A stretch of DNA of 64,000 nucleotides from a bacterium (GTDB lineage Bacteria > UBP14 > UBA6098 > B30-G16), in NCBI GenBank assembly GCA_021162205.1, contig JAGGZE010000100.1, forward strand, positions 587 to 64,586. The letters run 5' to 3'. The notes beneath the pieces are model-generated. The model ran no database searches, was not told where the DNA came from, and saw nothing but the letters and a program-made list of their open reading frames with translations. Shown piece after piece: positions 1 through 37,390 of this stretch. How positions within the stretch are numbered: the first letter of the stretch is position 1; each line of letters begins with the position of its first letter. The translations under genes were made by a program, and so were the position numbers.

Positions 1-3000
1 GTCTATTTTACAATCGTCGCCGATACGATTAGTGCCACAAGCACAACCGATAAAGATACACTTTGGCGAGCATCGCAGGGTGGTGTAAGTCCCAGCACAC
101 CGGGAACGGCATGTATGGATTTCTTTCTCCCATCGAACTCTGTCGGACTGACCGTAGTTGTTACCGTTGTTGGATACGATGAATACTCGAAATACAGAAC
201 ATTCACGGTGATAACAGGCACGGAATATAATATTTTACTAATGCAATTAGATTCCAATTCTGTAACTGTCGGCAGTGGACAGGTCGGTATTACTGTCTGG
301 GTGAAAGATGTTTTTGGACAACCCGTTCAAAATGAATTCGTATGTTTCACATCGTTGAATCCCACTCTTGGAGTAATGGCTGATTCCTGCCTTTTCAGCG
401 ATAATGCAGGGATGTGCACAACATCTTTTATCATCGGGACAAAATCTGGTATCGACACGATTTGTGCAACCGACCACGCAGGAATATCGGTGTGCGGGCA
501 TATTATCCTCAATCCCGCTGTGGCTAACACTGAAAGCTTATTTGCAGATGCTTATCACATCTATCGCTGCGGCTCGGGACTTTACGACCAAACCGATATT
601 ATCGCTCAAATATACGATAGATACTGGAATCCTGTCAGAAATGGAACATCCGTGATTTTTTCAATCGATACTTTTACTTTTATGGATTCATGTTCAAATA
701 ATCCATCGGATAGTTGTTATCCCTGTCCGGGTCTTGAACCCGAGCATCCCACTCTCGGAAGATTATATTCCGATACAGTCTATACGACGACAGATTCCAC
801 AGGTTCTTATGCAACCGTTAAACTTAAAGCTGGTTATCTTTCTGGTGTGGTTAGACTGCGCTGCGATGTTTTAGATGGTTCTGGAACTGTTGCATGGTCT
901 TCACTTTTAAATATTTCATCGGGACAACCGCATTATATATCGCTTTCAGCTCGTCCACCGGGGTCGTCTATTTGGGAAGCTGGCGACCCGATGCAAAATT
1001 ATTATTCCTCTCCAATCGACTATGCTATGTGGGGAGCTTGCACACAGGACAGTATGCCACTCGAAATTATGGCAGTAGTTTCAGATGAATTCAATAACCC
1101 GATACCGAGCACATCTGTTTGGTTCACTGCGACATCGGGAGTTGTCGGCGGCTGGCCTGGAAGTCCATCTATCGCTATCAACACGGATTCGACAGGCATC
1201 GGCACTACTTATTGGTTCTCATCGGATAGACGAGAACTCGATTCCTGTTTCGTTATGATTAAAGCTTATTCTGCGGAGACATCGGTGGCGGATAGTCTAT
1301 TTTTCTATCTTAGATATTTAGATGGCACACTTTGCTGCAATCCCTGCGATTTAGTGAACATAATTTCCGCTACCGCTATTCCCGATACTATCGAGGGCAG
1401 TGGCACCGATTCATCTACAATCGCTGTCCAACTTGTCTATAGTTCACTTCCACTGACAAATTATCAGGTTCAATTCAGAACGAGGCACGGATGGCTGTCG
1501 TCGAATATCGATACGACGAATGAAAGTGGTATTGCCACAGTCTATTATTCTGCGATAAATCCATCGCCGAGCACTTTTGCCGATACTATTACCGCTATCG
1601 CCGGCGACAGTTGCGCTATTGCTTATATACCCGTTTATGTGAGTCCTGCGGCAGTTGCATTGAATATAACTCTTATTGCAGACGATTACAATCCCACAGT
1701 AGGCGGGCAAGAGGTTGAACTCACGGGAATGATAAGAGATATTGGCGGTGTTCCTATTACTATTCCACTTCCGATAAGCTGGTCTATAATGACCGATACT
1801 CTTATTGCTCCTCCCGAAGTGGGTGATTTTGTAAGTTATTCTGTTTATTCGGATACACTCGGATTGTTCTCGGCAGTTTTCGAAACAGGCAATCTTGCGG
1901 GAGTGATTACGATAAATGCCATCGTTGCAGGTTCGGGAACAGCATCGGTGAATTTGAATATTTTACCCGCAACCGTTATATTAGCGGCAGATAATTACAA
2001 CCCAGAGGTCGGCGGAGTAGTTGTTCACTTAAATGGCTCGATAACAGATTATCTTGGCGACCCTGTGCGAACTCCCGCACCGGTGAACTGGAGTCTTATT
2101 TTACCCGATAGTTCCATAGCACCTATCGAAATGGGTCATCTCGACAGTTTATCGATGGCATCCGATACCAATGGAACATTTAAGGGTGTCTATATTTCTG
2201 GAACGACTAATGGCGAGGTTGGAGTTGTTGCCGAGGTCGCAGGAATCGGCTCTGATACAGTTTGGCTTAATGTGCAAAGCGGTCCACCGGCGGGAATTAC
2301 CCTGAATATTTCTCCCGATACCGATACTGTCGGCGGACTCGTGCCGGATACTATTTCAGGCTGCGTTGTCGATGGCTATGGTAATCCTGTCGAATTTTCT
2401 GGCGTAGTAAATTTATGGCTCGCATACGATGCAGCGGGTGATTCTGTTTGCTATCCATGTTCGTATGGCTCGATAGAACCGACAGGTGTTATTCCCGACA
2501 GCACAGGTTGTTTCACAGCATTATTCAGCCCGGGAGTGACATCGGGACTTATATGGATTCACGCTCTCGCCGATAGCGCTCATGGAGTTACATCTATAAC
2601 TCTTATTCCTCAATTGGCTCGAACTGAAAGTCTCGCGGTAAGTCTAAACCATATCCGCACTTGCGGAAACGCTCCATACCAAAGTGAAGTGACAACCTAT
2701 GTATTCGACCAGTTCGGCAATGCTGTTGCGGATTTGACACCGATTATATTCGCTATCGATACATTTTCATATATGGATGCCTGCACGACCTGGGATGATA
2801 GTTGTCTTTCGCCCTGTCCGAGATTGATACCATCGAGTTCTGTGCTGGGTCCGCTTTTCTCGGATACTATATATACAATCGATGGACTTGCACGAGCCAC
2901 ATTGAAAGCAGGTTCGGTTTCGGGTGTTGTGCGAGTTGCTGCCTATGTTATGGATGGTTCTGGCGAGGTTGCATATTCGCAGATGATAAATATCTCATCG

Positions 3001-6000
3001 GGAGATGTGCAGGAAATTTCTATCTCGGCTCGAAAAAGGTCGCCTATCGATACTTTAACTGGCCATTTATGCATAAGTGTTCCGCCATATACTTGCGAAT
3101 ATTGCAGTTGGACTTACGACTGGTGGTCTGGCGACCCCGACATCGATGGCTATGCTCCACAATTGAATATGCCAAGCGGATGGGTTCTCGATGGCGATAC
3201 TTGTAATTCCCTGTGGATTCAGGTGCGAATTTCGGTGTCCGATACATTCGGCAACCCGATACCGAGTGCGACTATTCATTTATCTTGCGATGAGGGAGTT
3301 ATCGGCGGTTATCCTTATGGCCCTGTCGATTCTGTGGCATTGACCGATACAAACGGTCTCGCATATACATACTGGTATGCCGCAGACCCGAGAGTCGATG
3401 GTCAAGTGTGGATTAAGGCACATTCATCGGATATAAGTGTGGGTGATAGTTTATGGTTCTATCTTTTGGATACTCTCGGTATTCCTCCGTATGATACTGT
3501 CGAGCAAGAGGTTATATATGTCGTTCCCGATACCGTTTTCGGCGATGGTCTTTCGACTGTCGATATTTTGTGCAGAGTGATGCGAAATGGCAATCCTCTG
3601 CCGAATTATCCCGTATATTTCTATGCGGATACAGGTATGATTGGCTCACCTGTTTTCAGCGATTCGATAGGTTATGCACGAACAACTTATTATTCGGGAT
3701 TGAATCATAATCCAGGAGTCATAACGACAGATAGCATAACTATGATTGCTGGAATAGATACAGCATATTTCCCGATATTTTTGTTGCCCATCGACCCTGT
3801 GCGACCCTATGTTGCATATATATTGTTCGATTTGCAACCCGATAATATTTCGGTCGGCGATTCGGCTGTGCTTTCGGGACTTATTCTCGATGGTCTCGGC
3901 TACCCTGTGCGGTTACCCGTGCCTGTCTATTTCGCACTTCATCAGGATAGTTTTCCAGCTCCGTTGAATATGGGTATAATTTCACCGGGATATACATATA
4001 CCAGTTCTGACGCTGCAACTTATGGACAGTTCAGCACGCTTTTCCGAAGCGGTTCACAGGCCGGAAATTTATGGCTACTTATGACCGCTATTCAGGGAGC
4101 CGATACTGTTATAGACTCGGTTATGATTCATATTACGGGGTCGTCGCCGCAAACTATTTCGGTTGTCCCTACATCGGCATATCTCGAAGCTGATGGCAGA
4201 AGCAATATGCAGGTTGTCGCTACTGTGCAGGATATGTATGGCAATCCTGTCGAGGGTGTTACTGTCGATTTCAGCACGACACTTGGACAGATGAATCCTG
4301 CGACTGCAATCACCAATGAAAATGGTCAAGCATCGACTATTTTGATAAGCGGCACAGAAACTGGAACCGCAGTAATCACTGCTACTTGCGAGGGCAGAGT
4401 TGGAACCGCCGAGGTCGAATTCGTTTCTGCTACAGTTCATTTTATAATTCTCGATGTCGAGCCATCGAGACTTCCAGCCGATGGAATAAGTTCAGCAGCA
4501 GTTACCGCCGATATTAGAGACCAGTATGGTCAGCCGATTTCCGATGGCACAATCGTATCGTATCGATGTTTGACACCCACTCATATACCGATTGGGAATA
4601 TCGATACGATAGGCGTAACATCCACTGGAATATCCACAGTTAATCTGACAGCACCGACTACCGCGACATCCGCATGGGTTTTTGCCACTGCGATGAGTCA
4701 TATCGAAAGCGTATATGTTGAATTCACCGCAGGCGATGTATATTCATTAGAGATTTCATCATTACCCGATACCATTCCCGCCGATGGTTTATCGCAATCG
4801 GATATATCGGTTCGAGCTTACGACCAGTATGGCAATCCTGTGGAAAGCGGAAATAGAATAGATTATGCTGCGACTTTGGGCGAATTGCTTTTCGACCACT
4901 CGTTCACAGATGATACTGGATTTACGCAAACGGTTCTCACGAGTGCAAGAACGACAGGTTCCTCTCAAATAACAGCATCATCGGGCGATGTCGAAGCAAT
5001 CACTGTTGTCTATTTTTCGCCGATAACCGCTCAATCGATTGTAGTGATGTCCGATTCGGTTCATCTTTGCGCCGATGGTATTTCATCGACAAATATACGA
5101 GCATTAGTTTTCGATTCACTCGGTGGTGCTGTCCCCGATGGCACACCCGTTAGTTTCTCCACCGACTTGGGAATTTTAATTCCAGGATACGCCTACACCG
5201 ATAGCGGCGAGGTGGTAGTATTACTGCGAGCTCCGACCACTCCGGGCATAGCGACTATTATTGCCGATGCCGGTGATGGAATTATCGGCACGACTTATGT
5301 CGAATTCATCGCAGGTTCACCGGCAAGTATTTCTATGTCTGTATCGCCGAATATTCTTCCAGCCGATGGCGATACGACCGCAATCATTTCTGGAACTGTA
5401 TATGATGAAAATGCCAATCCAATAGGTGCAGGTTTCGAGGTGCAATTCCAAACGACACTCGGCAGCGTGGATTTACTCACCTATACCGATTCTGTTGGAA
5501 GTTTTTCGATTATATATCATGCTGGCATCACTCCTGGAACCGCTATTATCGGTGCCACCTGTGAATCCGCTCACGGGCAGGCATATATAGATATTATCCC
5601 GACAGATGCCGAGGAATTGTATATCACAATCGACCCGAACGAACTGACTGCAGACAGCCGAAGCACCGCTGTGGTTTCTGGACGAGTTACAAATACGCTT
5701 GGAAATCCTGTCGCCGATGGCACACCTGTTAGATTGGAAATCCATTGTGCCGATACTCTCGGCTGCGATGCTTTCGGCGAGGTTATGCCTATTACTGTTC
5801 CCACCGACAGCGGAGATTTCAATGCTACATTTATCGCAGGCACAAGAGTCGGAAGAGTTTGGATTATCGCATCGGTCGGGACTGTTATCGATTCTGCATT
5901 TGTCAATCTGAAACCCGGCGAGGTAGATTCTATCGCTGTCGATGCGAACCCGAATATTATTTCTGCCGATAGTTTCAGTTATTCGCTAATCGCCGCTAAT

Positions 6001-9000: not shown

Positions 9001-12000
9001 ACTATGTCCGCAGATATTTACGATAGATATGGCAATTCTGTCGAGGGCGGACGCTCGGTAGCGTTCAATACTACACTCGGGCAAATATATCCTTCGACTG
9101 CACCGACAAGTTCGGGCGGACAAGCGAATGCAATTCTAACATCGTCGGCTGACCCTGGCTTAGCTTGGATTACTGCACAGTGCGAGGATGCCTACGCATC
9201 GGTAATGGTGGATTTTGGAATGATGCCACCGGTTTTCCTTTCTATAAATGCTTCGCCGAGAAGAATAACCGCCGATGGTATCTCGACATCAACAATCACT
9301 GCTCATTTGATAAATTCTGTCGGAGCTCCTGTCCCCGATGGCACTATGATATTTTTCCACTCGGTCGATAGCACTGGTGCACCATTCGGCGATATCGATA
9401 CTATCGCAACCACTATAAATGGCGATGCCAGTGTTATATTAACAGCGGAAACGCAAATAGGTGTGGCTTATGTTTCAGCAATCTGGTATAATGCTACGGA
9501 TACACTGACAGATACGGTAACGGTAACATTTACTCCGGGTGCTGTCGCTATGGTTCAGGTTACCGCCGACAGAGAAACACTTTATGCCAACGACACATTA
9601 ACCGCAAGAGTCACGATTGTCGTAACCGATGTATTCGGCAATATGGTCGAACCCGGGCAAGCTGTTGCAATTTCTGTGGACAATGGCGATATTTTCCCGA
9701 CAACAGGATATACCGGCGATACGATTATATGCACATATTATCCAGGTTCTGTCGCTGGAAGAGCTGTTATCACTGCAGAATGCGGTGGATTTGTCGGAAG
9801 TGAGGTTATCGAATTATTGACTCAGATTATTGCAAATCTCGTTATATATTCGGATTCTGCATTTTTGATAGCAAATGGCACAAGCACAACGGGCATTCAT
9901 ATCGTAGCACAGGATTCACTGGGACATCCCGTAGCGGATAATACTCCTGTTTATGTTACAACGACTACTGGAATTACTTTTCCCGGTGTAACATATACAT
10001 CCGGTGGTGAAGCGGCAGTAACTTTGCGAAGTAGCACGCATTCGCCCGACACTGCGATAGTTATTGGAACTGCTGGCTCTGCTTCGGATACTATTTCTAT
10101 TGTGTTCATAGCGGGTCCACCTGCTCTTATAAATCTCGTTCCTGCGAGAAATGTTCTCTGGGCTGATGGCGAGGATACCACTATGGTTCGGGCATATATC
10201 ACCGATATTCATGGCAACTGGGTCGATGAGGGCGAAATTGTCGGTTTCAGCACGAATCTCGGAATAGTGGATAGTTTCGATGTAACTCACGCTGTTGTCG
10301 GGACGACCGGATATGCTCAAACTATGTTCAGGTCTGGAATCGAACCTGGAGCAGCACTCGTAACTGCTAATTGTGGTGATGCTACTGGAATAACTCGAAT
10401 CACACTCGACCCGACTAATGTCGGCGAAATCGGTATATTTGCAAGTCCAGATATAATAGTTGCCGATGGTCATCAAACATCCGATATCACGGGTTTTGTG
10501 CGAAATAGTTTGGGAAATCCAATCAGCGATGGCACTCAAGTCAGACTTAGAGTTTCACCTGATTCACTCGGTAATATATCCCCCGTATCTGTATATACCG
10601 ATAGCGGCAATTTTTCTGCAACATTTACCGCTGCAACAGTTGTCGGTTCGGTATGGGTTGTTATGAATGTCGGTGGAGATACCGATTCGGTCGCAATAGA
10701 ACTCGCACCGGGACAACCTCATATAATAACGATGAACCCTATTATCGGCACAATTTATGCTGATTCATCATCGGTAGATACTATCGCTGTCGTAGTGACA
10801 GATAGATATAGCAATCGTGTTCATGGTGGTGTTTCGATAAATTTCACCACTACACTCGGCGAGATATTCCCGGTGAGTAACGAAACGAATTCCGCTGGAA
10901 GCACCTATGTATTCATTCGCTCGGGATATAATGTCGGAGTTGCACGAGTTGTCGGCAGAATCGATTCTGCGAGAGGTGAATGCTCTGTGATTATTCAGAC
11001 TACGCAGCCGAATATTATCGCGCTATCTGTGGACCCGCATACGCTTATGGCTGATGGATTCTCCACTACATTGCTTACTGCAACCGTATTGGATACATTC
11101 GGACATCCTATATCCGATGGCACACCTGTAACTTTCTCGGTCGATGATAGCACTTATGGATTGATATTCCCCGGTATAGCTTACACAACGAGCGGACAGG
11201 CTACCAGCACATTTAGAGCTGCGGTTCAAAAAGGACATCCTGTATTGAAAGCTGAAACCAGTCCGACAAATTATGATAGTGTAGTTATAACTCTTACTGC
11301 TGGTAATCCCGCTTCGGTTGTAATGACCGCCATTCCAGGCACGCTTTCGGCGAATGGAATGGACCAGAGCGATATCGATGTTCAGGTATTCGATGAGTGG
11401 CTAAATCCTGTAGATGCTGGACAATCCGTTAGTTTCAATTCGACGCTTGGACAAATTTTATTCCCGACACTGCTAACCGATGACAGTGGTCATACCAACA
11501 CTGTTTTACAAGCGGGAAGTGTTCCTGGAAATTGTCAGGTTTCCGCGCAATGCAGTGGTGTTTATGATGTTATCAATGTTACATTTTCGCGAAGTGGTGT
11601 GAATACAATAATTCTAACTGCAAATCCACCCGAACTTGTTGTGGATGGGATTTCGAGTTCTGCTATTACGGCTCAGATTTTCGATGCTAATGGTTCACCC
11701 GTAACAGATAATACGAAAATTTATTTCTGGTCATCCGACCCATTAGCAGGAACAGTTATTTCACCGAGATTCACAAGCGGGGGACAGGTTGTAACCGAAT
11801 TTATTGCGGGAACTAGTATCGGAACAGGGCAGGTATGGATTTTCTCGAGTGATACGGATACGGTTGTTGCGGCTCATCCAATCGATTCTGTGAGAATCGG
11901 ACTTAAACCAGGACAACCTGCATATATAAATGTCTGGACCGATACGAGTCATACACCTCACGATACTCTCTATGCCGATGGCAACGATGGTATATGGGTT

Positions 12001-15000
12001 TTTGCACAAGTTTTCGATGCCTATGGAAATCATATCAATGGTGGGCAAAATGTCGGTTTCCAAACTACAATGGGAAGATTTAGCCCGATTTCTGCGATGA
12101 CCGATACCACTGGCACTGCGAGAGCATATATTCAATCGGGACTCGATATTGGAACAGCGACTATAACTATCACCTGCGGTTCGGCTATGGGATTTCTCGG
12201 TGTCGAGATGATACAGACAACGGTTGCAGGACTTCTTCTAACTCCAGATAAACTGGTTCTTGTCGCAGATGGCACCGATGTTGCGACTATTACTGCAACC
12301 GTATTTGCACCGGGCGGCACTCGTGTTTCCAATAATACTATCGTTCATTTTTATGCCGATACCGATTGGGTGCATCTACTTCCAGAGAATACATACACCG
12401 ACAGCGGTGAAGCCAGTATCACTGTTCGAGCCGATACGGTTGCCACGAGTTCGATTAGAATTCATGCCTATGCGACGACTACAGCGGGTGATACATCCGA
12501 TACCGCATCGCTGAATTTTAGAATCGACCCGGGTCCTGCGGCAAGAATGAATATTACCGTTTCAGATTCTGCTATTCCCGCCGATGGTGCGACAGGTTCG
12601 CTTATCGATGTCTTTGTTTATGATAGATATTCAAATCCGATTATCGCGGGTTCTACGGTTAGGTTTAATACGACACTGGGAGTTATAACCACGGTTAGTT
12701 TCACCGATACTCTCGGGCATTCATCCGCACTGCTGACATCGGGAACAGAAACCGGAAATGCCGTTGTTACTATAACAGCGGGAGATATAACAGGATTTAC
12801 TCAGGTTAGTTTTTATGAATTAACAACCGATGAACTTATAATGACAATTAATCCGATACAGTTGCCCGCCGATGGTGTCAGTTCTGCGACTATAACAGTT
12901 CACGCTTACGATTCGCTCGGTTTTCCATCGTCGGATGGCAGCAGAGTAGCATTCTACCAGCACGATACGACAAGCGGTTTCATTAAGGGAATTATTGCTC
13001 CGCATATCGCCTATACTGTCGATGGAATAGTTACAGTTACATTGACAGCTCCTGTCAAAAAGGGTTGGGGGAGAATCTACGCCTATGCGGATACTGTGGG
13101 TTCCGCTGTCGTCGATTCTTTCGATGTTCAATATCTCGCGGGAGAACCTGCGATAATACAATTCGATACCACTAATTTCAGTAATTTCGAGGCGAGTGGA
13201 ATGTATTTCGATGTGCCTGTTATTATTGAAGATGCTTATGGAAACCCAGTCGATGTTGGAACCGAGGTTACATTCACAACTACACGCGGGGATATTCAAA
13301 CACCAGCGGTTGTATCGAATGACACAGGTGGAACTGTAACATATATTTCCAGCCACGAGACAGGACCTGCTGTTATAACAGCTCATTCTGGAAGTGCTGT
13401 CGCTACGGCTCACTGCAATTTCAATGAAATCGAGGGCGATTGGATGATGATTATCGCCAATCCATATATTATCACAGCGGATGGCGCATCTCATTCGACT
13501 ATCACGGCAACTCTTATGGATACGAGTGGCGGAATATTTATTCCTGTATCCGATGGTGTTCCTGTTCAATTTATGGTTATTGGACCCGGTATTTTATCTT
13601 CTTCCATTGCATTCACATCTGGAGGACAGGCATCGGTTACATTAACCGCTGGAACGATTGCCGATACTACACAAATTTTCGCATTAGCAATATCGGCATC
13701 GGGAGATACACTTTCAGATACAGTGAATGTATTTTTACAGCCCGGTCCTGCATCGATTGTGGAATTTATAGATTCATTCTTTCATCCTCTTCCCGCAAAT
13801 GGTGCCGACACCGAACAGGTATGGATAAAAGTTATGGATGCTTTTGGAAATGGTGTGATTCGTGGGACACCTGTTTCATTCAGCACAAATCTCGGGGATA
13901 TTACACCCAATAGCGCCACCGACGACAGTGGTTTTGCTTGGGCGATATTGACTGCGAGTTCTACTCCCGGTGTTGCCACTATTTCAGCGAGTTGTGGGGG
14001 TGCAGCAGGTTATGCGACAATCGCTATGCAGGAATTGACCGCCGATTCGATTATTTTAGCTGTGTATCCTCGCGAAATAATCGCCGATGGCGTATCGACA
14101 AGTGAACTGACCTCGGTTGTATTTCATGGCGACTTGCCTGTTTCCGATGGCACAATCGTTAGATTTTCGGCATCGCGAGGAATTACTCGTCCAGCTATCG
14201 CTTACACATCGTCCGGTGTTGCCACCTCGCAACTCGTATCATCTGTTAGTCCGGATACTGTATTTATAGCTGCTATCAGTGGAACGGTTGCAGATACCGA
14301 TACTGTTTACTTAGTCCCTGGACCTCCTACAAGGATGACTATCGAATCCACACCCGATTCTGTTCTTGTCGCAAATGGAAACGATACACTTCGAGTAAAT
14401 GTGCAGGTTTTCGACGATTATAGTAACCCTGTGGGTTCGGGTCAATTAGTTACATTCGGTTCTACAATCGGGATAATTACGCCGAATGCTTATACCGATT
14501 CAGTCGGACAGGCATCGGTGATTCTTTCGAGCGAATATGAAGCTGGATGGGCACAGATAACGGGGACTTGCGGAAGTGCTACTGCAAGTATGCTAATTCA
14601 ATTTATTCCCGATTCGATTGGACAGGTTATTTTGGCTGTCAATCCAATCGAACTTACCGCCGATGGAGGTTCCACTGCCGATGTAACTGTAACTGTGCTC
14701 GATATAAACGACCATCCAATTGCGGATGGCACACCCGTTCTATTCAGTGGATTAAATCTCGGGCTTATAAGCCCACCTGTTGTAACGACAACCGATGGCT
14801 CGGCATCGGCTACTCTTACAAGTTTCACGCTTATCGGTATGGATACTATTATAGCGAGTTGTGGTTCGGTAGTGGACTCGGTGAATTTATCGTTTGTGGC
14901 TGGACCACCTGCGAATATTGTGTTAATTCCCAATAATAACTTTCTTATTTCCGATGGCACGGATACAACGACTGTTACCGCTACTGTTACCGATGCAGCG

Positions 15001-17877
15001 GGCAATCCTGTCGAGGATGGCACTGTGGTGCATTTCAGCGTCGACCCATCGGATATGGGAGTCGTTTGGTCGGTAGCTGTTACCGCCGATACAGGAAGAT
15101 GTAAAACGCTATTCCAGGCCGGAACACAACCTGGAATTGTAGCGATTCACGCGACCGCTGGCGGCGCCGATGGAACATGTGTTATCGAACTTGTGCCTCC
15201 AGATGTAGCTTCTATCGAACTTTCGGTTGCAGACCATTATCTTCCCGGCGATGGTATATCCAGCACACAAGTCACTGCGATTGTATTCGATACGCTCGGA
15301 CTTCCAGCACCGAATGGCACAGGGGTTCATTTCGCTGTTACGGATAGTTCTGTCCCTGCAAATCTATTCCCTGCCTGGGCACAGACAATCGATGGTATAG
15401 CCAATGTTCAGTTAATCGCTCCGACTGATATTGGAGTTTGCTCGGTATATGCTTATATCGATACAGGAGACACCCCTTGGGTTATGAGCGATACGGAATT
15501 AGTTTATTTCGAAGGCGGCGACCCACAAGCTATCGTATTCAATCCGCCGACATTTACACTTCCAGCCGATGGTGCCACCGATACAGTCGGCACACTCACT
15601 GTAATCGATAGATATGGCAACCCGATAGGTGCAAGACCTGTTAGTATGACATTGGATTTAGGCAGAATCAGCCCAGCAACAGTTGTTACCGATACATCGG
15701 GTCGTGGAGTATTTCAGATAACATCTTCGATACATATCGGCGATGGTATGATTCAAGCTACAGCGGACCCTGCCATAGGATATATGAATATTCATTATAC
15801 CGCTGTTCCAATCGATACGATACTCGTTTTCGCTACACCATCGAGATTGCCAGCCGATGGAACGAGCCAATCTACTGTTACAGCGATTGTGATGGATTCG
15901 CTGGGAAGATTGTGTTCGGATGGAATGAGTGTGTATTTCTATACCGATAACGGATTTATTACTCCGCACGATACGACTATGGGAGGGCAAGCTCACGCTA
16001 CACTGACGGCGGTGGATACTGTTTGCACTGCTACGGTTACAGTTGTATGCCAAACCGAAAGCGCCTATGTAAATGTGATTTTCACTGCGGGGGTGCCAGA
16101 TACGATTATAGTTACATTCTCACAAGATATGGATACTGTTGGAAGCGGAACGATGGATTCGATTTCTGGCTTGGTTCTCGATACGCTTGGAAATAATGTG
16201 GGTGCTGGTGCGCTCGTCGAACTATGGCTTTCCACAGATATAGCAGGTTCGGATACTTGCGGTAGTGGCGGCGAACCGTGTAGTCTCGGAACAATCGGCG
16301 ATATTACCATCCTGACAGATTCCAATGGTCAATTTAGCACACAGTTCACACCTGGAACAAAAGCTGGTATTGTTTGGATTCAGGCGAGGTCTGGTAGTGC
16401 GATAGGAAAAGATTATATGATTCTCGAACCCGAGATTGCGCATACTGAAAGTCTCGATGTCGATAGGAATCATATATATGTGCGTGGGTCGGGAAATATC
16501 GACCAGGCAATTTTGACCGCATATATATTGGATAGATATAGCAATCCTGTGAAAGACAGCACGAAAATTATTTTCTGGTGCACGAATTATCCGGGTGGAG
16601 CAGACCCGAATCGTCAGCCATCTATCGAACCGGAACATCCAACATCGGGGCAACTTTATTCCGATACGATTTACACTCTTAACGGGCGAGGCAATGTTAC
16701 GGTTCGTGCGGGGAAAGCATCCGGTGTTGTGGTTGTTCGAGCGGAATTATTCGATGGCTCGGGACTAATTTCCGAATCGCCGCGTATCTCTATTTCCAGC
16801 GGACTGCCATACAATATCTCGATGTCGGTAAGAGATTGTAATATTGCAGGATGGCTTGTCGATGGTCTTCAGGATACTGTAATGGCTATTGTTTCGGATT
16901 CTATGGATAATCCCTGTCCGAATACTGCTGTATATTTGACCTGCGACGAAGGTATTGTTACGGGTTCTGCTGTTACCGATAGCAATGGTATCGCTTATGG
17001 AATATGGTTCTCCGCCGACCCGAGAGATACGAACGGCTATCCGACAGCAGGGCGCATTATGGTCGAGGGAAGAACTCGCGGCGATTCATCGGCAACTTGC
17101 CATGGCGATTCCGGCTGGGTTTGCGACAGCACGATGTTCTATAATTCAGGACCCGCCGAATCGGTATATGTAACAGTTTCACCGAACTCTATCAATGCCG
17201 ATGGTGTCAGCACCGCCGATATTGTTGCGTTGGTATTCGACCACAATAGAAATCCTGTTGTCGATAGCTCGAATGTTCATCTTTTGACTAATCTCGGTTC
17301 GGTTACCGACCCGATTACAACTTATAACGAATGTTTCGGCAGTCGCGCCGATGGCGTATATACCAGCACCACTCTCGACCAGGATGATTACTGCGCAGAC
17401 CCGCGTGGTAGAACTGCAACAATAAGCGCTCTCGCCGGTTTCGCCGCAGGTTCCGATAATGTGGATTTGATGAATTCAGACCCGAGTCCAGAAAATTCCG
17501 GTGTAACTGCACCGGGTTCGGTTCCAGTAGGTGGTGATTTCAGCGCTGTGGTAACCGTAAAGGATATTTGGGGTAATCCACTTTGCGGCGAATCCGTAAC
17601 ATTAATTAGCGCAGTCGGTGCGACTGTTACTGGAAGTCCTGGAGTTACAAATAATTCGGGTATCGTTTCATTCAATGTAATAGCTGCTACCGATACTGTC
17701 GATATAAACGATGTGCTGACAGCAAGGTTCGGTTTGTGCGCCGTTTGGACAGAAGTTACATATGCCTCGGGCAAGGGAGTATTTACACCGGATACTTCGA
17801 GTTCCGCCGGAAGTGATAATCGAACACCGATGTATATCGAGTATCGGGATAGTTTGATAAATAAACCGAGTGAATAG
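1..17877 (+). CDS. Giant secreted adhesin-like protein made of tandem bacterial Ig-like (Big_1/invasin-type) domains. It is 5'-partial: frame 1 is open from nt 1 to the first ATG at 115.
   Basis: A 5,920-aa ORF with no stop in frame between nt 1 and 115. It contains dozens of ~95-aa repeats with the motif 'ADG.S...TA.V.D.(Y/F)GNPV..GT.V.F.T.LG'. Confidence 0.8.
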   Translation, partial: VYFTIVADTISATSTTDKDTLWRASQGGVSPSTPGTACMDFFLPSNSVGLTVVVTVVGYDEYSKYRTFTVITGTEYNILLMQLDSNSVTVGSGQVGITVWVKDVFGQPVQNEFVCFTSLNPTLGVMADSCLFSDNAGMCTTSFIIGTKSGIDTICATDHAGISVCGHIILNPAVANTESLFADAYHIYRCGSGLYDQTDIIAQIYDRYWNPVRNGTSVIFSIDTFTFMDSCSNNPSDSCYPCPGLEPEHPTLGRLYSDTVYTTTDSTGSYATVKLKAGYLSGVVRLRCDVLDGSGTVAWSSLLNISSGQPHYISLSARPPGSSIWEAGDPMQNYYSSPIDYAMWGACTQDSMPLEIMAVVSDEFNNPIPSTSVWFTATSGVVGGWPGSPSIAINTDSTGIGTTYWFSSDRRELDSCFVMIKAYSAETSVADSLFFYLRYLDGTLCCNPCDLVNIISATAIPDTIEGSGTDSSTIAVQLVYSSLPLTNYQVQFRTRHGWLSSNIDTTNESGIATVYYSAINPSPSTFADTITAIAGDSCAIAYIPVYVSPAAVALNITLIADDYNPTVGGQEVELTGMIRDIGGVPITIPLPISWSIMTDTLIAPPEVGDFVSYSVYSDTLGLFSAVFETGNLAGVITINAIVAGSGTASVNLNILPATVILAADNYNPEVGGVVVHLNGSITDYLGDPVRTPAPVNWSLILPDSSIAPIEMGHLDSLSMASDTNGTFKGVYISGTTNGEVGVVAEVAGIGSDTVWLNVQSGPPAGITLNISPDTDTVGGLVPDTISGCVVDGYGNPVEFSGVVNLWLAYDAAGDSVCYPCSYGSIEPTGVIPDSTGCFTALFSPGVTSGLIWIHALADSAHGVTSITLIPQLARTESLAVSLNHIRTCGNAPYQSEVTTYVFDQFGNAVADLTPIIFAIDTFSYMDACTTWDDSCLSPCPRLIPSSSVLGPLFSDTIYTIDGLARATLKAGSVSGVVRVAAYVMDGSGEVAYSQMINISSGDVQEISISARKRSPIDTLTGHLCISVPPYTCEYCSWTYDWWSGDPDIDGYAPQLNMPSGWVLDGDTCNSLWIQVRISVSDTFGNPIPSATIHLSCDEGVIGGYPYGPVDSVALTDTNGLAYTYWYAADPRVDGQVWIKAHSSDISVGDSLWFYLLDTLGIPPYDTVEQEVIYVVPDTVFGDGLSTVDILCRVMRNGNPLPNYPVYFYADTGMIGSPVFSDSIGYARTTYYSGLNHNPGVITTDSITMIAGIDTAYFPIFLLPIDPVRPYVAYILFDLQPDNISVGDSAVLSGLILDGLGYPVRLPVPVYFALHQDSFPAPLNMGIISPGYTYTSSDAATYGQFSTLFRSGSQAGNLWLLMTAIQGADTVIDSVMIHITGSSPQTISVVPTSAYLEADGRSNMQVVATVQDMYGNPVEGVTVDFSTTLGQMNPATAITNENGQASTILISGTETGTAVITATCEGRVGTAEVEFVSATVHFIILDVEPSRLPADGISSAAVTADIRDQYGQPISDGTIVSYRCLTPTHIPIGNIDTIGVTSTGISTVNLTAPTTATSAWVFATAMSHIESVYVEFTAGDVYSLEISSLPDTIPADGLSQSDISVRAYDQYGNPVESGNRIDYAATLGELLFDHSFTDDTGFTQTVLTSARTTGSSQITASSGDVEAITVVYFSPITAQSIVVMSDSVHLCADGISSTNIRALVFDSLGGAVPDGTPVSFSTDLGILIPGYAYTDSGEVVVLLRAPTTPGIATIIADAGDGIIGTTYVEFIAGSPASISMSVSPNILPADGDTTAIISGTVYDENANPIGAGFEVQFQTTLGSVDLLTYTDSVGSFSIIYHAGITPGTAIIGATCESAHGQAYIDIIPTDAEELYITIDPNELTADSRSTAVVSGRVTNTLGNPVADGTPVRLEIHCADTLGCDAFGEVMPITVPTDSGDFNATFIAGTRVGRVWIIASVGTVIDSAFVNLKPGEVDSIAVDANPNIISADSFSYSLIAANLFDVYGNAVGSGVDVNFSTTNGTILPEHTTTNSSGYASALLISSRMPGVARVQVSSGSAIGEDTVVFSESGAGLVIVTISPSQIIADGVSFAIVTAQITDTLGNPISDGIPVMFSEIVDTATGADTLGVLVPSIAYTSDGEATVQFRARTQKGIATVRACIDSLHCGEGIVEFIAGNGDSIEIYSADSMLPADGVSFTEITAIVYDRYGNLVEGGRSVLFATTSGGVAPATAPTNSAGQAKAILTSSDNPGIAWVTSQCEDGYATIPVEFGLAEPVFLAVNANPRRIAADGISTSAITARLINAVGEPVVEGTMIIFHAFDSLGNPFGDIDTLATTSAGQAQVTLTAPTQIGVAYVTAAYYGDIDTLIDTTTVTYTPGPPAGIDIFVAPETLYANDTVTADIRIVVVDLYGNPVEPGQNISISSDNGTIFPTTAYTGDTVVCTYYPGSVAGRATINVSCGSIVNSAVIELLTPSIAYLVVFADSSSLVANGSSVSEIHIIAQDALGHPVADNTPVYLTTTAGLVFPGIAYTNGGEAVVSLRSGTVAPDTAVIIVSAGVEAETVYVPLIPGPPAMIDIIPNSTSLFADGEDTTTVRAYVTDAHGNWVNEGTNVRFSTSLGTIDSLTLTTAVAETTGFASARFRAGIIPGSALITVTSGTAISQTIIGLIPTDVGNIYLTVDPNELIADSRSTAVVSGRVTNTLGNPITDGTPVGLEVHCADTLGCNGFGEIVPITVHTDSGNFDAEFIAGTRVGRIWVVASVDTIADSAFVDLIPGEPDSVALTIVPNTLPADSFSNATVTANLYDRFGNPVESGVTVNFSTSLGEIDPTNTTTNSSGRATTHLTSGRTPGIALVRASSGSAAGEDTAIFTQTGAQLVVVTIDPAQIVADGINSAIVSAQISDSLGNPVSDGMPVMFVQIVDTAAGEDTLGLLVPSIGFTDSGVATIHFRAGTETGRATIQACVDTAHCGIGFIDLIAGTADSIILVSADTVLPADGVSMTTMSADIYDRYGNSVEGGRSVAFNTTLGQIYPSTAPTSSGGQANAILTSSADPGLAWITAQCEDAYASVMVDFGMMPPVFLSINASPRRITADGISTSTITAHLINSVGAPVPDGTMIFFHSVDSTGAPFGDIDTIATTINGDASVILTAETQIGVAYVSAIWYNATDTLTDTVTVTFTPGAVAMVQVTADRETLYANDTLTARVTIVVTDVFGNMVEPGQAVAISVDNGDIFPTTGYTGDTIICTYYPGSVAGRAVITAECGGFVGSEVIELLTQIIANLVIYSDSAFLIANGTSTTGIHIVAQDSLGHPVADNTPVYVTTTTGITFPGVTYTSGGEAAVTLRSSTHSPDTAIVIGTAGSASDTISIVFIAGPPALINLVPARNVLWADGEDTTMVRAYITDIHGNWVDEGEIVGFSTNLGIVDSFDVTHAVVGTTGYAQTMFRSGIEPGAALVTANCGDATGITRITLDPTNVGEIGIFASPDIIVADGHQTSDITGFVRNSLGNPISDGTQVRLRVSPDSLGNISPVSVYTDSGNFSATFTAATVVGSVWVVMNVGGDTDSVAIELAPGQPHIITMNPIIGTIYADSSSVDTIAVVVTDRYSNRVHGGVSINFTTTLGEIFPVSNETNSAGSTYVFIRSGYNVGVARVVGRIDSARGECSVIIQTTQPNIIALSVDPHTLMADGFSTTLLTATVLDTFGHPISDGTPVTFSVDDSTYGLIFPGIAYTTSGQATSTFRAAVQKGHPVLKAETSPTNYDSVVITLTAGNPASVVMTAIPGTLSANGMDQSDIDVQVFDEWLNPVDAGQSVSFNSTLGQILFPTLLTDDSGHTNTVLQAGSVPGNCQVSAQCSGVYDVINVTFSRSGVNTIILTANPPELVVDGISSSAITAQIFDANGSPVTDNTKIYFWSSDPLAGTVISPRFTSGGQVVTEFIAGTSIGTGQVWIFSSDTDTVVAAHPIDSVRIGLKPGQPAYINVWTDTSHTPHDTLYADGNDGIWVFAQVFDAYGNHINGGQNVGFQTTMGRFSPISAMTDTTGTARAYIQSGLDIGTATITITCGSAMGFLGVEMIQTTVAGLLLTPDKLVLVADGTDVATITATVFAPGGTRVSNNTIVHFYADTDWVHLLPENTYTDSGEASITVRADTVATSSIRIHAYATTTAGDTSDTASLNFRIDPGPAARMNITVSDSAIPADGATGSLIDVFVYDRYSNPIIAGSTVRFNTTLGVITTVSFTDTLGHSSALLTSGTETGNAVVTITAGDITGFTQVSFYELTTDELIMTINPIQLPADGVSSATITVHAYDSLGFPSSDGSRVAFYQHDTTSGFIKGIIAPHIAYTVDGIVTVTLTAPVKKGWGRIYAYADTVGSAVVDSFDVQYLAGEPAIIQFDTTNFSNFEASGMYFDVPVIIEDAYGNPVDVGTEVTFTTTRGDIQTPAVVSNDTGGTVTYISSHETGPAVITAHSGSAVATAHCNFNEIEGDWMMIIANPYIITADGASHSTITATLMDTSGGIFIPVSDGVPVQFMVIGPGILSSSIAFTSGGQASVTLTAGTIADTTQIFALAISASGDTLSDTVNVFLQPGPASIVEFIDSFFHPLPANGADTEQVWIKVMDAFGNGVIRGTPVSFSTNLGDITPNSATDDSGFAWAILTASSTPGVATISASCGGAAGYATIAMQELTADSIILAVYPREIIADGVSTSELTSVVFHGDLPVSDGTIVRFSASRGITRPAIAYTSSGVATSQLVSSVSPDTVFIAAISGTVADTDTVYLVPGPPTRMTIESTPDSVLVANGNDTLRVNVQVFDDYSNPVGSGQLVTFGSTIGIITPNAYTDSVGQASVILSSEYEAGWAQITGTCGSATASMLIQFIPDSIGQVILAVNPIELTADGGSTADVTVTVLDINDHPIADGTPVLFSGLNLGLISPPVVTTTDGSASATLTSFTLIGMDTIIASCGSVVDSVNLSFVAGPPANIVLIPNNNFLISDGTDTTTVTATVTDAAGNPVEDGTVVHFSVDPSDMGVVWSVAVTADTGRCKTLFQAGTQPGIVAIHATAGGADGTCVIELVPPDVASIELSVADHYLPGDGISSTQVTAIVFDTLGLPAPNGTGVHFAVTDSSVPANLFPAWAQTIDGIANVQLIAPTDIGVCSVYAYIDTGDTPWVMSDTELVYFEGGDPQAIVFNPPTFTLPADGATDTVGTLTVIDRYGNPIGARPVSMTLDLGRISPATVVTDTSGRGVFQITSSIHIGDGMIQATADPAIGYMNIHYTAVPIDTILVFATPSRLPADGTSQSTVTAIVMDSLGRLCSDGMSVYFYTDNGFITPHDTTMGGQAHATLTAVDTVCTATVTVVCQTESAYVNVIFTAGVPDTIIVTFSQDMDTVGSGTMDSISGLVLDTLGNNVGAGALVELWLSTDIAGSDTCGSGGEPCSLGTIGDITILTDSNGQFSTQFTPGTKAGIVWIQARSGSAIGKDYMILEPEIAHTESLDVDRNHIYVRGSGNIDQAILTAYILDRYSNPVKDSTKIIFWCTNYPGGADPNRQPSIEPEHPTSGQLYSDTIYTLNGRGNVTVRAGKASGVVVVRAELFDGSGLISESPRISISSGLPYNISMSVRDCNIAGWLVDGLQDTVMAIVSDSMDNPCPNTAVYLTCDEGIVTGSAVTDSNGIAYGIWFSADPRDTNGYPTAGRIMVEGRTRGDSSATCHGDSGWVCDSTMFYNSGPAESVYVTVSPNSINADGVSTADIVALVFDHNRNPVVDSSNVHLLTNLGSVTDPITTYNECFGSRADGVYTSTTLDQDDYCADPRGRTATISALAGFAAGSDNVDLMNSDPSPENSGVTAPGSVPVGGDFSAVVTVKDIWGNPLCGESVTLISAVGATVTGSPGVTNNSGIVSFNVIAATDTVDINDVLTARFGLCAVWTEVTYASGKGVFTPDTSSSAGSDNRTPMYIEYRDSLINKPSE
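5611..10398 (+). repeat. Intragenic tandem segmental duplication in the giant gene: two ~2.4-kb units (about 800 aa, 8 Ig-like domains each), 5611-8016 and 8017-10398, then a diverged partial third copy from ~10399.
   Basis: Both units begin with '(T/V)DPNEL(T/I)ADSRSTAVVSGRVTNTLGNP' and stay colinear for about 800 aa. DNA identity is roughly 75-80% by eye. Confidence 0.85.
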
Positions 17878-18754: not shown

Positions 18755-18986
18755 TATGGATTTGAAAAAATAATCGCATATTTTCGGTTTGATTCTATAT
18801 GGAATAAGGGAAAAGCACAGTGGAATTCGAGCATTCCTTATGGAATTGTAGCAACTCTTGTGTTTGTCCTTACGACACCCGCGCATATTTATCTAAACGC
18901 CCGATTTTAAAAATAGCAGATGGAAATCGCAAAACAATTCTCAATTTTTTGTTGAGTTATTCATTTTTTCTGCTTATATAAGCAAT

Positions 18987-36961: not shown

Positions 36962-37373
36962 ACCTAATATAATCGCTTTTCTGTGCAATTGGTGCAGTTA
37001 TGCGGGAGCCGACCTTGCAGGCGTTTCGAGATTCCAGTATCCAGCAAATCCCAAGGTGGTAAGGGTCCCCTGTTCGGGCAGGATAAACCCTATGTTTATT
37101 GTGAAATCGCTTTACGAAGGATTAGATGGTGTTTGGGTATCGGGATGTCATCCGGGAGATTGCCATTATAATACAGGGAATTATTATGCAAGGAGAAGAT
37201 TTGCCCTGTTAAAGAATATGCTTTCACATATCGGATTCGAAGAGGATAGGACATTGTTCTCCTGGGTATCGGCATCCGAGGGAAATATATTCGCAGACAA
37301 AGCGAAAGAGGTTACAGCGAGAATAAAGAAACTCGGTCCGCGAAAAAAATTACTAAAAAACAGAGATATTTGA
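36945..37373 (+). CDS. mvhD: MvhD/FlxD-like [2Fe-2S] protein (methyl-viologen-reducing hydrogenase delta-subunit family).
   Basis: 'IIAFLCNWCSYAGADLAG...VRVPCSGRINP...GVWVSGCHPGDCHY' matches the MvhD signature. The ATG at 36945 is preceded by an AGGAGA RBS; the ORF track starts at an upstream GTG at 36927. Confidence 0.75.
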   Translation: MDKEYEPNIIAFLCNWCSYAGADLAGVSRFQYPANPKVVRVPCSGRINPMFIVKSLYEGLDGVWVSGCHPGDCHYNTGNYYARRRFALLKNMLSHIGFEEDRTLFSWVSASEGNIFADKAKEVTARIKKLGPRKKLLKNRDI

Positions 37374-37390
37374 ATAAATTGGAGGTTTAA

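What the first reader, a model, noticed from the sequence alone, without database searches (positions are those of the whole stretch)
1..17877. Giant Ig-like-domain protein of more than 5,900 aa with a 2.4-kb internal duplication and a thrice-repeated Cys-rich 'TESL' module
The ORF is open to the window's first base, so the protein is larger than 5,920 aa. Besides about 45 Big_1-type Ig domains it contains two further kinds of repeat. First, a diverged tandem segmental duplication of an 8-domain (~800 aa) block at 5611-8016 and 8017-10398, with a decayed third copy, showing the gene grows by block duplication. Second, a distinct ~140-aa module begins with '(N/Q/E)..A.TESL', carries the motif C(Y/L)(P/S)PCP(G/R)L.P(E/S) and a conserved 'GxxSGVVxVRxxxxDGSG' stretch, and occurs at the N-terminal region (~523-960), internally (~2611-3050) and near the C-terminus (~16435-16860). 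These modules may demarcate super-repeats or act as disulfide-stabilised linkers. No T9SS CTD or other recognisable sorting signal is present at the C-terminus. The export and anchoring route is therefore unclear; the small secreted protein immediately downstream (17951-18754) is a candidate partner.
Basis: seen in the sequence. Interest (0 to 1): 0.6.

Follow-up and report, generated by a model that had tools for sequence, protein, structure and literature searches.

The report
Giant Ig-repeat lipoprotein with partner genes
This is the gene for a roughly 6,040-residue protein built from at least 56 immunoglobulin-like domains, probably a lipid-anchored cell-surface fibre of an uncultured sediment bacterium, always found with two small partner genes; it is an unusual variant of a familiar kind of protein rather than something new in kind.

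Summary
Frame 1 is open from base 1 to the stop at 17875-17877 (5,958 codons). A 99.8%-identical contig and an orthologue both place the start 252 nt upstream, giving about 6,042 aa. The 2.4-kb duplication is real (63.6% aa, about 70-77% DNA identity). It is old: orthologues carry both blocks, and all 56 domains have one-to-one positional orthologues. It is therefore not an assembly artefact and not ongoing growth.

The 'TESL' modules are divergent Big_1/intimin-type Ig domains with a 20-28-residue insertion. A profile of the 40 canonical domains scores them at 24-35 bits. The AlphaFold model (pLDDT 87) matches intimin D00-D0 best. The Cys motif occurs in copies 1 and 2 only. Each TESL domain is the middle of a three-domain 'triad'. 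The C-terminal triad plus two further domains is the conserved core of a wider lipoprotein family (about 700 to 6,000 aa).

Orthologue N-termini carry a signal peptide with a conserved 'FWGC' lipobox-like site and no intimin barrel. No T9SS C-terminal domain (CTD) is present, and a sister strain truncates the last 18 residues. The cassette of giant gene, 267-aa predicted outer-membrane β-barrel and ~800-aa TPR protein is conserved in four lineages with differing flanks. Verdict: new variant of a known kind, moderate interest.

The parts
1..17877 (+). Giant Ig-repeat protein gene. It lacks its first 252 nt (84 codons) in the window, which holds 5,958 codons; the full product is about 6,042 aa.
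   Evidence: Open frame. Start position from L001 and L008. Big_1/Invasin_D3 matches. 56 Ig-like domains.
238..1425 (+). Triad 1 (X, TESL and Y Ig-like domains). TESL domain 1 is at about 496-915.
   Evidence: Alignment A1. Canonical-domain profile hit of 24.1 bits at aa 196-296.
2284..3600 (+). Triad 2. TESL domain 2 is at about 2596-3000 and carries 4 conserved Cys (RTCG plus the insertion DAC..DSCLSPCP).
   Evidence: AlphaFold model with pLDDT 87 and intimin D00-D0 as best PDB match.
4156..16083 (+). Array of 40 canonical Big_1 domains (aa 1386-5361), with alternating two-domain and eight-domain periodicity.
   Evidence: Identity at even lags is about 30% against about 25% at odd lags; lag 8 gives 40%. 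Nearest solved relative is Yersinia invasin 1CWV, E 1.6e-9.
5611..8016 (+). Duplicated 8-domain block A (aa 1871-2672).
   Evidence: 63.6% aa identity to block B over 788 aa. Orthologous block in L008 at 90% and L009 at 79%.
8017..10398 (+). Duplicated 8-domain block B (aa 2673-3466).
   Evidence: Orthologous block in L008 88%, L009 and L005 77%, L002 70%, L003 69%.
16084..17874 (+). Conserved C-terminal five-domain module. It comprises triad 3 (16096-17235; TESL domain 3 at about 16411-16800, no Cys motif), two further Ig-like domains, and a non-conserved tail.
   Evidence: Colinear with complete ~700-aa lipoproteins (alignment A5). The triad lies 170-260 aa from the C-terminus in many relatives. 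TESL3 and Y3 are the best-conserved C-terminal domains in the most distant orthologue (71-72%).
17821..17823 (+). Polymorphic codon: CGA here, TGA in the 99.8%-identical contig L001, where it removes the last 18 residues.
17951..18754 (+). 267-aa partner protein with a signal peptide, predicted to be an outer-membrane β-barrel. It belongs to no described family.
   Evidence: Sequence. 8 homologue clusters only. Conserved synteny. AlphaFold all-β model, pLDDT 67.6. Foldseek hits are outer-membrane barrels only. No Pfam or NCBIfam match.
18987..21374 (+). 795-aa TPR protein with an N-terminal signal peptide; third member of the conserved cassette.
   Evidence: TPR families. Partial YbgF/BamD-type matches. 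Orthologues are 44-56% identical and always follow the barrel gene.

Best explanation
The gene encodes a lipoprotein of about 6,042 aa. It has a signal peptide ending in a conserved Cys, followed directly by at least 56 tandem Ig-like domains of the Big_1/invasin type.

Architecture (shown):
- Two copies of a three-domain 'triad' lie near the N-terminus.
- A stalk of 40 canonical Big_1 domains follows.
- The C-terminus is a five-domain module (triad 3 plus two domains). This module is the invariant core of a wider lipoprotein family whose members range from about 700 to 6,000 aa.

Mechanism (inferred):
- The protein is exported by Sec and lipidated at the Cys.
- It forms a rod-like fibre anchored to the cell envelope, roughly 0.2 µm long. 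The length estimate uses about 3.6 nm per domain, recalled from the ~18-nm five-domain invasin rod; no paper was read for this.
- The conserved C-terminal module sits at the distal end as the interacting part.
- The stalk acts as a spacer of fixed length.
- The two co-conserved downstream genes encode a 267-aa outer-membrane β-barrel and an ~800-aa periplasmic TPR protein. They most likely help move the fibre across the outer membrane or hold it there.

The TESL domains are Ig domains with an inserted loop. The four Cys in copies 1 and 2 probably tie that loop down by disulfides or a bound metal. The 8-domain duplication is an ancient, fixed event.
For: Shown:
- Big_1/Invasin_D3 matches far above the curated cut-offs, and 56 domains tiling the protein.
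- TESL is an Ig fold.
- Orthologue N-termini read 'MNFKKIIGLGILFLLIAILTIFWGCQQGT' (L008), '..LAIFWGCQQGT' (P0001) and '..LSVFWGCQQGT' (L009), followed at once by Ig-like sequence. The gene start is at the same distance in the near-identical contig.
- Short relatives have canonical lipoboxes: IWIGC, VVAGC, VMAGC, ILGGC. Among proteins that carry the complete triad, 16 of 37 pass a simple lipobox pattern, and many of the rest are 5'-truncated fragments.
- The C-terminal module is colinear with whole ~700-aa proteins and sits at a fixed distance from the C-terminus.
- The cassette of giant gene, barrel and TPR is conserved in L002, L003 and L005-L007, while the genes beyond it differ: thiE here, GATase/DnaA, LemA or a protein kinase elsewhere.
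- Barrel and TPR genes overlap or lie 4 nt apart in relatives.
- No terminator-like site lies in the 73-nt gap between the giant gene and the barrel gene.
- One-to-one domain orthology and a length held at 5,967-6,081 aa.
- Adjacent domains are only about 25% identical. From my own knowledge, low identity between neighbouring domains is thought to limit misfolding in tandem-repeat proteins.
Against: - The N-terminus of this exact gene is outside the window. The lipoprotein call rests on orthologues, and the site has Trp at -2, which is outside the usual lipobox consensus.
- Nothing here shows surface exposure, lipidation or adhesion.
- The barrel model has only moderate confidence (pLDDT 67.6, TM 0.35-0.41 to any solved barrel).
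- Barrel and TPR have no family assignment, so their role is inferred from synteny alone.
- A related 3,919-aa family member (P0015) has neither partner downstream, so the partners are not needed by the whole family.
- In the window a 232-nt spacer separates the barrel and TPR genes.
Confidence: 0.55

Rival explanations
1. The fibre crosses the outer membrane through a secretin (a T2SS or type IV pilus-like machine), as the lipoprotein pullulanase does. The adjacent barrel and TPR proteins would then have another role.
For: Short lipoprotein homologues of the C-terminal five-domain module lie directly next to or inside PilM/N/O-secretin or T2SSE/F-pseudopilin-secretin operons, in at least three differently organised loci.
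Against: Those homologues are distant (26-33% identity). No secretin or pilus gene is seen next to the giant gene in the window or in L002-L008. Nothing links the giant form to such a machine.
Confidence: 0.15
2. The protein stays inside the envelope, lipid-anchored and facing the periplasm, as a structural or spacing element. It would not be a surface fibre.
For: No known surface-export signal is found. The lipoprotein signal alone does not specify the outer leaflet.
Against: A rod of about 56 Ig domains is far longer than a periplasm is wide. Big_1 arrays characterised so far are surface adhesins (my own knowledge of intimin and invasin). The co-conserved partner is a predicted outer-membrane barrel.
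Confidence: 0.12
3. It is a T9SS cargo with a cryptic C-terminal signal, and the downstream barrel is its PorP/SprF-like partner, as with SprB and SprF.
For: The genome has T9SS parts and CTD-bearing proteins: a PorP/SprF fusion at 27674-30379, a type A CTD protein at 51728-54196, and a weak type B CTD at 22209-27602. A giant protein followed by a small barrel gene resembles sprB-sprF.
Against: No CTD model matches the last 338 aa. The tail is not conserved, and a near-identical strain truncates it by 18 aa. The barrel profile against the window's own PorP domain gives an hhalign probability of 1.9%.
Confidence: 0.05
4. It is an inverse autotransporter of the intimin/invasin family (type Ve secretion).
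For: It uses the same Ig domain family. The best PDB matches are invasin (sequence) and intimin D00-D0 (fold).
Against: Orthologue N-termini go from a signal peptide and Cys straight into Ig-like domains. There is no β-barrel translocator or LysM domain, and no C-terminal lectin-like domain.
Confidence: 0.03
5. The 2.4-kb duplication, or the whole repeat array, is an assembly artefact.
For: Repeat arrays in metagenome assemblies are often mis-assembled.
Against: The two blocks share only 70-77% DNA identity in patches, too diverged to collapse or mis-join. Independent assemblies from other samples and lineages show both blocks in the same order.
Confidence: 0.01

Closest known systems
Intimin/invasin inverse autotransporters (type Ve secretion; Big_1 PF02369, Invasin_D3 PF09134)
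   Same: Same Ig domain family in tandem. The canonical domains match Yersinia invasin 1CWV by sequence. The TESL model matches intimin D00-D0, InvD and InvE by fold.
   Different: There is no N-terminal β-barrel translocator, LysM or C-terminal lectin-like tip, and a lipobox-like signal stands in their place. The array has 56 domains rather than about 4-47. A separate small barrel gene lies downstream instead of a fused barrel.
Leptospira LigA/LigB (lipoproteins with tandem Big_2 domains)
   Same: From my own knowledge, the overall design is the same: an N-terminal lipoprotein signal followed directly by a long tandem array of bacterial Ig-like domains, forming a surface adhesin.
   Different: The Ig family differs (Big_1, not Big_2). 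This protein is 3-5 times longer. It has a conserved five-domain C-terminal module and dedicated barrel and TPR neighbours. No sequence relationship was found here.
Giant Ig-repeat adhesins secreted by T1SS (Salmonella SiiE, 53 BIg domains; LapA/RTX adhesins)
   Same: Similar size and number of Ig-like repeats. Presumed role as a long surface fibre.
   Different: No RTX repeats, no C-terminal T1SS signal, and no ABC/MFP/TolC genes nearby. An N-terminal Sec/lipoprotein signal is present instead.
SprB-SprF and other T9SS type B cargo with a PorP-like partner
   Same: A giant repetitive surface protein gene is followed by a small outer-membrane barrel gene, in a genome that has T9SS parts.
   Different: No CTD. 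The barrel is not detectably PorP/SprF. An extra TPR gene is present.
TPR-plus-barrel outer-membrane exporters (Slam for surface lipoproteins; BamA/BamD; AlgK-AlgE, PgaA, BcsC)
   Same: A periplasmic TPR scaffold is combined with an outer-membrane barrel next to the gene of an exported substrate. For Slam the substrate is a lipoprotein (my own knowledge).
   Different: Here the two functions are separate genes. The barrel has no DUF560 or other family match. The TPR protein matches only generic TPR, YbgF and BamD-type models below their cut-offs.
Omptin outer-membrane proteases (OmpT, Pla)
   Same: These are the top Foldseek hits of the barrel model. There is a weak Pfam Omptin match in the same register in 3 of 8 homologues. 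An invariant DxDW lies at a position colinear with OmpT Asp83/Asp85.
   Different: hhalign probability is 2.4%. The Asp210/His212 dyad is not aligned. TM-scores are only 0.35-0.41. This does not establish homology or protease activity.

Membership tests
Big_1 / invasin-type bacterial Ig-like repeat proteins | Repeated matches to PF02369/PF09134 above the curated cut-offs | tested here: met
   Invasin_D3 441 and 555 bits, Big_1 430 and 505 bits, against cut-offs of 33 and 34.9; 39-40 stretches.
Big_1 / invasin-type bacterial Ig-like repeat proteins | The TESL modules have the same fold and are profile-detectable homologues | tested here: met
   The canonical-domain profile scores them at 24.1, 32.7 and 34.9 bits, with 0 hits in 200 shuffles. 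The model has pLDDT 87, and its best PDB matches are intimin D00-D0 and GH2 Ig domains. Pfam Big_1 itself does not reach them.
Inverse autotransporters (intimin/invasin, type Ve) | N-terminal β-barrel translocator domain before the Ig array | tested here: not met
   Orthologues P0001, L008 and L009 go from a signal peptide and Cys directly into Ig-like domains. The Pfam scan of P0001 shows no barrel or LysM domain. The window itself lacks the first 84 codons.
Inverse autotransporters (intimin/invasin, type Ve) | C-terminal C-type lectin-like tip domain | tested here: not met
   No Pfam or PDB sequence match other than Ig-type domains in the last 597 aa.
T9SS cargo | C-terminal sorting domain, type A (TIGR04183) or type B (TIGR04131) | tested here: not met
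   No hit at E <= 0.1 in the last 338 aa, while other window proteins do hit. The tail is truncated in a sister strain.
T9SS cargo | Cognate PorP/SprF-family barrel encoded downstream (type B cargo) | tested here: not met
   The barrel profile against the window's own PorP domain gives hhalign probability 1.9%. No PorP_SprF Pfam hit.
Bacterial lipoproteins | Signal peptide ending in a lipobox with an invariant Cys | tested here: inconclusive
   A conserved '(I/V)FWGC' follows a K-rich n-region and a hydrophobic core in three orthologues. Short relatives have canonical lipoboxes. However, Trp at -2 is atypical, the window lacks this region, and no dedicated predictor was available.
Bacterial lipoproteins | Acylation of the Cys and cleavage by signal peptidase II | not testable with these tools
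   Needs palmitate labelling, globomycin treatment or mass spectrometry.
T1SS giant adhesins (SiiE, LapA/RTX) | RTX or C-terminal T1SS signal, with an adjacent ABC/MFP/outer-membrane factor | tested here: not met
   No RTX or T1SS families in the protein or its neighbours.
Omptins (for the 267-aa barrel) | Pfam Omptin match above cut-off, plus the catalytic Asp83/Asp85 and Asp210/His212 | tested here: not met
   Best score is 10.9 bits against a cut-off of 22.6. hhalign probability is 2.4%, with no Asp-His dyad at the aligned position. Only a DxDW motif is colinear.
Slam-type surface-lipoprotein translocators | DUF560 14-stranded barrel with an N-terminal TPR domain | tested here: not met
   No DUF560 or other Pfam match for any of 8 barrel homologues at E <= 10. 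TPR and barrel are separate genes.

The most novel reading that the evidence does not exclude
The conserved trio of giant Ig-repeat lipoprotein, orphan ~267-aa outer-membrane barrel and ~800-aa periplasmic TPR protein is an undescribed, dedicated system. It would carry a 0.2-µm lipoprotein fibre across the outer membrane or anchor it there. Functionally it would be a 'split' counterpart of inverse autotransporters or of Slam, found in uncultured T9SS-bearing bacteria from hydrothermal sediments. The C-terminal five-domain module, shared with secretin-operon lipoproteins, would be the recognised or adhesive end.
Probability: 0.25. Interest if true: 0.7.

Novelty: new variant of a known kind. 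Interest (0 to 1): 0.38.

Why it matters
Giant Ig-repeat adhesins are known. The known ones reach the surface through a fused barrel (intimin/invasin), a T1SS (SiiE, LapA) or a T9SS C-terminal domain (SprB). This one shows none of these. It combines a lipoprotein-type N-terminus with two private partner genes, an outer-membrane barrel and a TPR protein.

If the partners prove to be its export or anchoring device, that would add a route for placing very long lipoproteins on diderm surfaces.

The strict one-to-one conservation of all 56 domains, and of total length, argues that the fibre's length is itself under selection. This runs against the usual picture of repeat arrays as fast-changing.

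The link between short family members and secretin operons gives a testable lead on what the conserved C-terminal module does.

In practical terms, the finding shows that the 'TESL module' is not a new fold and that the duplication is not an assembly problem.

Tried and rejected
- Exact 42-nt match of the window start in GTDB genomes and in JGI metagenomes: 0 hits each. The window's own upstream DNA could not be read.
It was redone with a two-sequence alignment.
- Barrel as PorP/SprF: rejected.
- Barrel as omptin: built a real omptin alignment from plasmid records. hhalign probability 2.4%, catalytic dyad absent. Kept only as a weak lead.
- A hypervariable or diversity-generating (DGR-like) patch at 15021-15066, where 9 of the 23 SNPs against L001 cluster: rejected. 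All but one change is synonymous and no internal donor copy exists. It looks like a recombination tract between strains.
- Barrel relatives in JGI metagenomes: only 4 loci, 2 of them already known, so the synteny sample could not be enlarged.
- Literature searches for the MAG name and for giant Big_1 lipoproteins returned nothing. A search on the suspected sampling site returned 9 papers, none of which mentions this family or helped place the organism.
- Phylum not determined. NCBI names the sources only 'bacterium'. Distant relatives are labelled KSB1 and Neomarinimicrobiota.
Full report
**1. The open reading frame**

Frame 1 of the + strand has no stop codon from base 1 to the TAG at 17875-17877, which is 5,958 codons. 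The mechanical ORF list reports it from the first ATG at 115.

The gene continues upstream of the window, but only briefly.
- An ENA contig (L001) is 99.83% identical to the window over 13,835 nt.
- That contig calls a 6,024-aa product. This places the start 252 nt before window base 1.
- In the orthologue on a GTDB representative genome (L008, about 82% DNA identity), an ATG preceded by AGGAGG lies exactly 252 nt before the position that aligns with window base 1.

The window allele therefore encodes about 6,042 aa.

In L001 a C-to-T change at window position 17821 turns CGA into TGA and removes the last 18 residues.

**2. Domain content**

Pfam finds Invasin_D3 and Big_1 far above their cut-offs, with 39-40 matched stretches. 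A profile built iteratively from the protein's own domains tiles the whole sequence with 56 Ig-like domains. The linkers are mostly 7 residues.
- Forty domains (aa 1386-5361) are canonical.
- Eleven N-terminal and five C-terminal domains are divergent.

The nearest solved relative of the canonical domains by sequence is Yersinia invasin 1CWV (E 1.6e-9).

**3. The duplication**

Block A (aa 1871-2672) and block B (aa 2673-3466) align colinearly at 63.6% identity over 788 aa. At the DNA level only patches of 70-77% identity remain. An assembler could not have collapsed or duplicated these blocks.

A lag analysis of the 40 canonical domains shows a hierarchy:
- neighbouring domains are about 25% identical;
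- domains two apart are about 30% identical, an alternating two-domain unit;
- domains eight apart average 40%, and 56-75% within the A/B pair.

The proposed third copy is only marginal. It scores 47% and 38% for its first two domains and background after that.

The duplication is old.
- L008 and L009 each carry both blocks. Orthologous pairs are 77-90% identical; cross pairs are 61-65%.
- L002, L003 and L005 carry a block B orthologue at 69-77%.
- Every domain of the window protein has a positional orthologue at regular spacing in every locus that covers it.
- Total length is held at 5,967-6,081 aa in all lineages seen.

The architecture is therefore fixed, not growing.

**4. The TESL modules**

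The string TESL occurs three times, at aa 177, 875 and 5482. The modules are 41-45% identical to one another and 15-30% identical to the other domains. They are nevertheless Ig domains.
- A profile built only from the 40 canonical domains scores them at 24.1, 32.7 and 34.9 bits (iE 3e-9 to 1e-12). It gives no hit in 200 shuffled controls.
- The profile alignment places a 20-28-residue insertion after the 'V.F' strand. The rest follows the Big_1 consensus.
- An AlphaFold model of module 2 (49-row alignment, pLDDT 87, pTM 0.80) is an all-β sandwich.
- The best PDB matches of that model are intimin D00-D0, GH2 C-terminal Ig domains, InvD/InvE and intimin.

Four Cys are conserved in modules 1 and 2 and in their orthologues. 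One lies in 'R(T)CG' and three in the insertion, including a CxxC or CxxxC. Module 3 and its orthologue P0002 lack them.

**5. The real repeated unit and the wider family**

Each TESL domain is the middle of a three-domain triad (X, TESL, Y; about 380 aa). The triad occurs three times and its copies are about 40% identical.

A profile search of 1.84 billion representative proteins found the complete triad, in one stretch, in 37 of the proteins examined. It typically sits 170-260 residues from the C-terminus. Host proteins range from 697 to 5,163 aa, and 16 of the 37 pass a simple N-terminal lipobox pattern.

The last 597 aa of the window protein align colinearly with entire ~700-aa lipoproteins that have canonical lipoboxes. 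The alignment covers triad 3 and two more domains.

The family is thus defined by three parts: a lipoprotein signal, a variable Big_1 stalk, and a conserved five-domain C-terminal module. The clade of the window adds two further triads near the N-terminus and a 40-domain stalk.

In the most distant orthologue, TESL3 and Y3 are the best-conserved C-terminal domains. They reach 71-72%, against 43-49% for their neighbours.

**6. Targeting signals**

The orthologue N-termini are as follows:
- L008: 'MNFKKIIGLGILFLLIAILTIFWGCQQGTSPTPP'
- P0001: '..LLLLAIFWGCQQGTEPTG'
- L009: '..LSVFWGCQQGTSPTPP'

Each has a basic n-region, a hydrophobic core and a conserved Cys. The signal runs straight into Ig-like sequence, with no β-barrel or LysM domain. 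The Trp at -2 is atypical for a lipobox, so I rate the lipoprotein call as likely rather than shown.

At the C-terminus:
- no T9SS CTD or other sorting model matches;
- the tail is not conserved;
- the tail is truncated in a sister strain;
- it contains no hydrophobic segment.

The genome does have T9SS parts and CTD-bearing proteins. The absence of a CTD here is therefore meaningful.

**7. The partner genes**

The 267-aa protein has a signal peptide (cleavage around 'FA-VPFGNPADLPP') and alternating β-strand patterns.
- Its AlphaFold model is an all-β barrel of about a dozen long strands (pLDDT 67.6).
- Foldseek returns only outer-membrane barrels: omptins, FapF, OmpA, autotransporter barrels and OMPLA. 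Probability is 1.0 but TM-scores are only 0.35-0.41.
- It matches no Pfam or NCBIfam family.
- It has only eight homologue clusters among 5.8 billion proteins.

It is not detectably PorP/SprF. The omptin lead comprised top fold hits, a weak Pfam match in a consistent register, and a colinear invariant DxDW. It failed a profile-profile test against real omptins: probability 2.4%, with no Asp-His dyad at the aligned position.

The next gene encodes a 795-aa TPR protein with a signal peptide.

The order giant gene, barrel, TPR is kept in four further lineages. Their barrel proteins are 62-85% identical to the window's and their TPR proteins 44-56%. The genes beyond the cassette differ in each lineage. 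In relatives the barrel and TPR genes overlap or lie 4 nt apart. In the window a 232-nt spacer separates them.

A 3,919-aa family member from a related organism has neither partner. The partners therefore belong to the ~6,000-aa clade, not to the whole family.

**8. Interpretation**

Best supported (confidence about 0.55): this is a Sec-exported, lipid-anchored, rod-like fibre of about 0.2 µm. The conserved five-domain module lies at its far end. The barrel and TPR proteins assist outer-membrane passage or anchoring.

The length estimate uses about 3.6 nm per domain, which I recall from the invasin rod; no paper was read for it.

What is shown:
- the architecture;
- the conserved domain content;
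- the absence of a C-terminal signal;
- the conserved synteny.

What is inferred:
- lipidation;
- surface exposure;
- adhesion;
- the role of the partners.

Rivals, in order of weight:
- export through a secretin machine, suggested by the genomic context of the short homologues;
- a periplasmic structural role;
- a cryptic T9SS cargo;
- an inverse autotransporter;
- an assembly artefact.

The last three are contradicted by tests run here.

**9. Comparison with known systems and verdict**

The protein works most like Leptospira Lig proteins (a lipoprotein with an Ig array) and like the passenger part of intimin/invasin. It fails the defining features of four families: inverse autotransporters (no fused barrel), T9SS cargo (no CTD), T1SS adhesins (no RTX or ABC system) and Slam (no DUF560).

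I file it as a new variant of a known kind. Interest is moderate. The modular 'TESL' claim falls, and the duplication is ordinary ancient history. Two results are worth follow-up: the conserved three-gene cassette with an orphan barrel, and the strict conservation of a 56-domain architecture.

Noticed in passing
window 22209-27602 (+) and 27674-30379 (+): A 1,797-aa Big_5 protein with a weak type B T9SS CTD (TIGR04131, E 0.024). It is followed directly by a 901-aa fusion of PorP/SprF, CARDB and two OmpA-like domains. This looks like a type B cargo with its PorP partner, here fused to peptidoglycan-binding domains.
   Followed up: partly
window 51728-54196 (-): An 822-aa protein with a type A T9SS sorting domain (TIGR04183, 24.2 bits against a cut-off of 23; FlgD_ig fold). 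It shows that the organism uses T9SS.
   Followed up: no
L010 6001-8109; L018 8001-10967; L011 6001-8892: Short lipoproteins of 700-990 aa are homologous to the giant protein's C-terminal five-domain module. They sit next to or inside PilM/N/O-secretin or T2SSE/F-pseudopilin-secretin operons, in at least three differently organised loci. This suggests that the module is linked to a secretin machine.
   Followed up: partly
window 15021-15066: Nine of the 23 differences from the 99.8%-identical contig L001 fall within 46 nt. All but one (D to E) are synonymous, and no donor copy exists elsewhere in the gene. This is probably a short recombination tract between strains.
   Followed up: yes
window 17821: A CGA/TGA polymorphism between near-identical strains shortens the giant protein by 18 residues.
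   Followed up: yes
window 41599-43260 (-): A single 553-aa ORF combines a TatD-type DNase domain (aa 39-286) with a KsgA/RsmA rRNA adenine dimethylase domain (aa 293-550). This appears to be a gene fusion.
   Followed up: no
window 32504-40071 (+): A 1,485-aa multi-flavin, multi-FeS oxidoreductase is followed by FrhB-like, Fer4_22 and DHODB-like subunits. This may be a large electron-transfer or electron-bifurcating complex.
   Followed up: no
window 18755-18986: A 232-nt spacer separates the barrel and TPR genes in this lineage. In the orthologous cassettes the two genes overlap or lie 4 nt apart.
   Followed up: partly
window 17951-18754 (alignment A4): The barrel family has invariant 'SDADW' and 'NWH' motifs. 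The DxDW is colinear with the OmpT Asp83/Asp85 site, but the omptin Asp-His dyad is not matched.
   Followed up: yes
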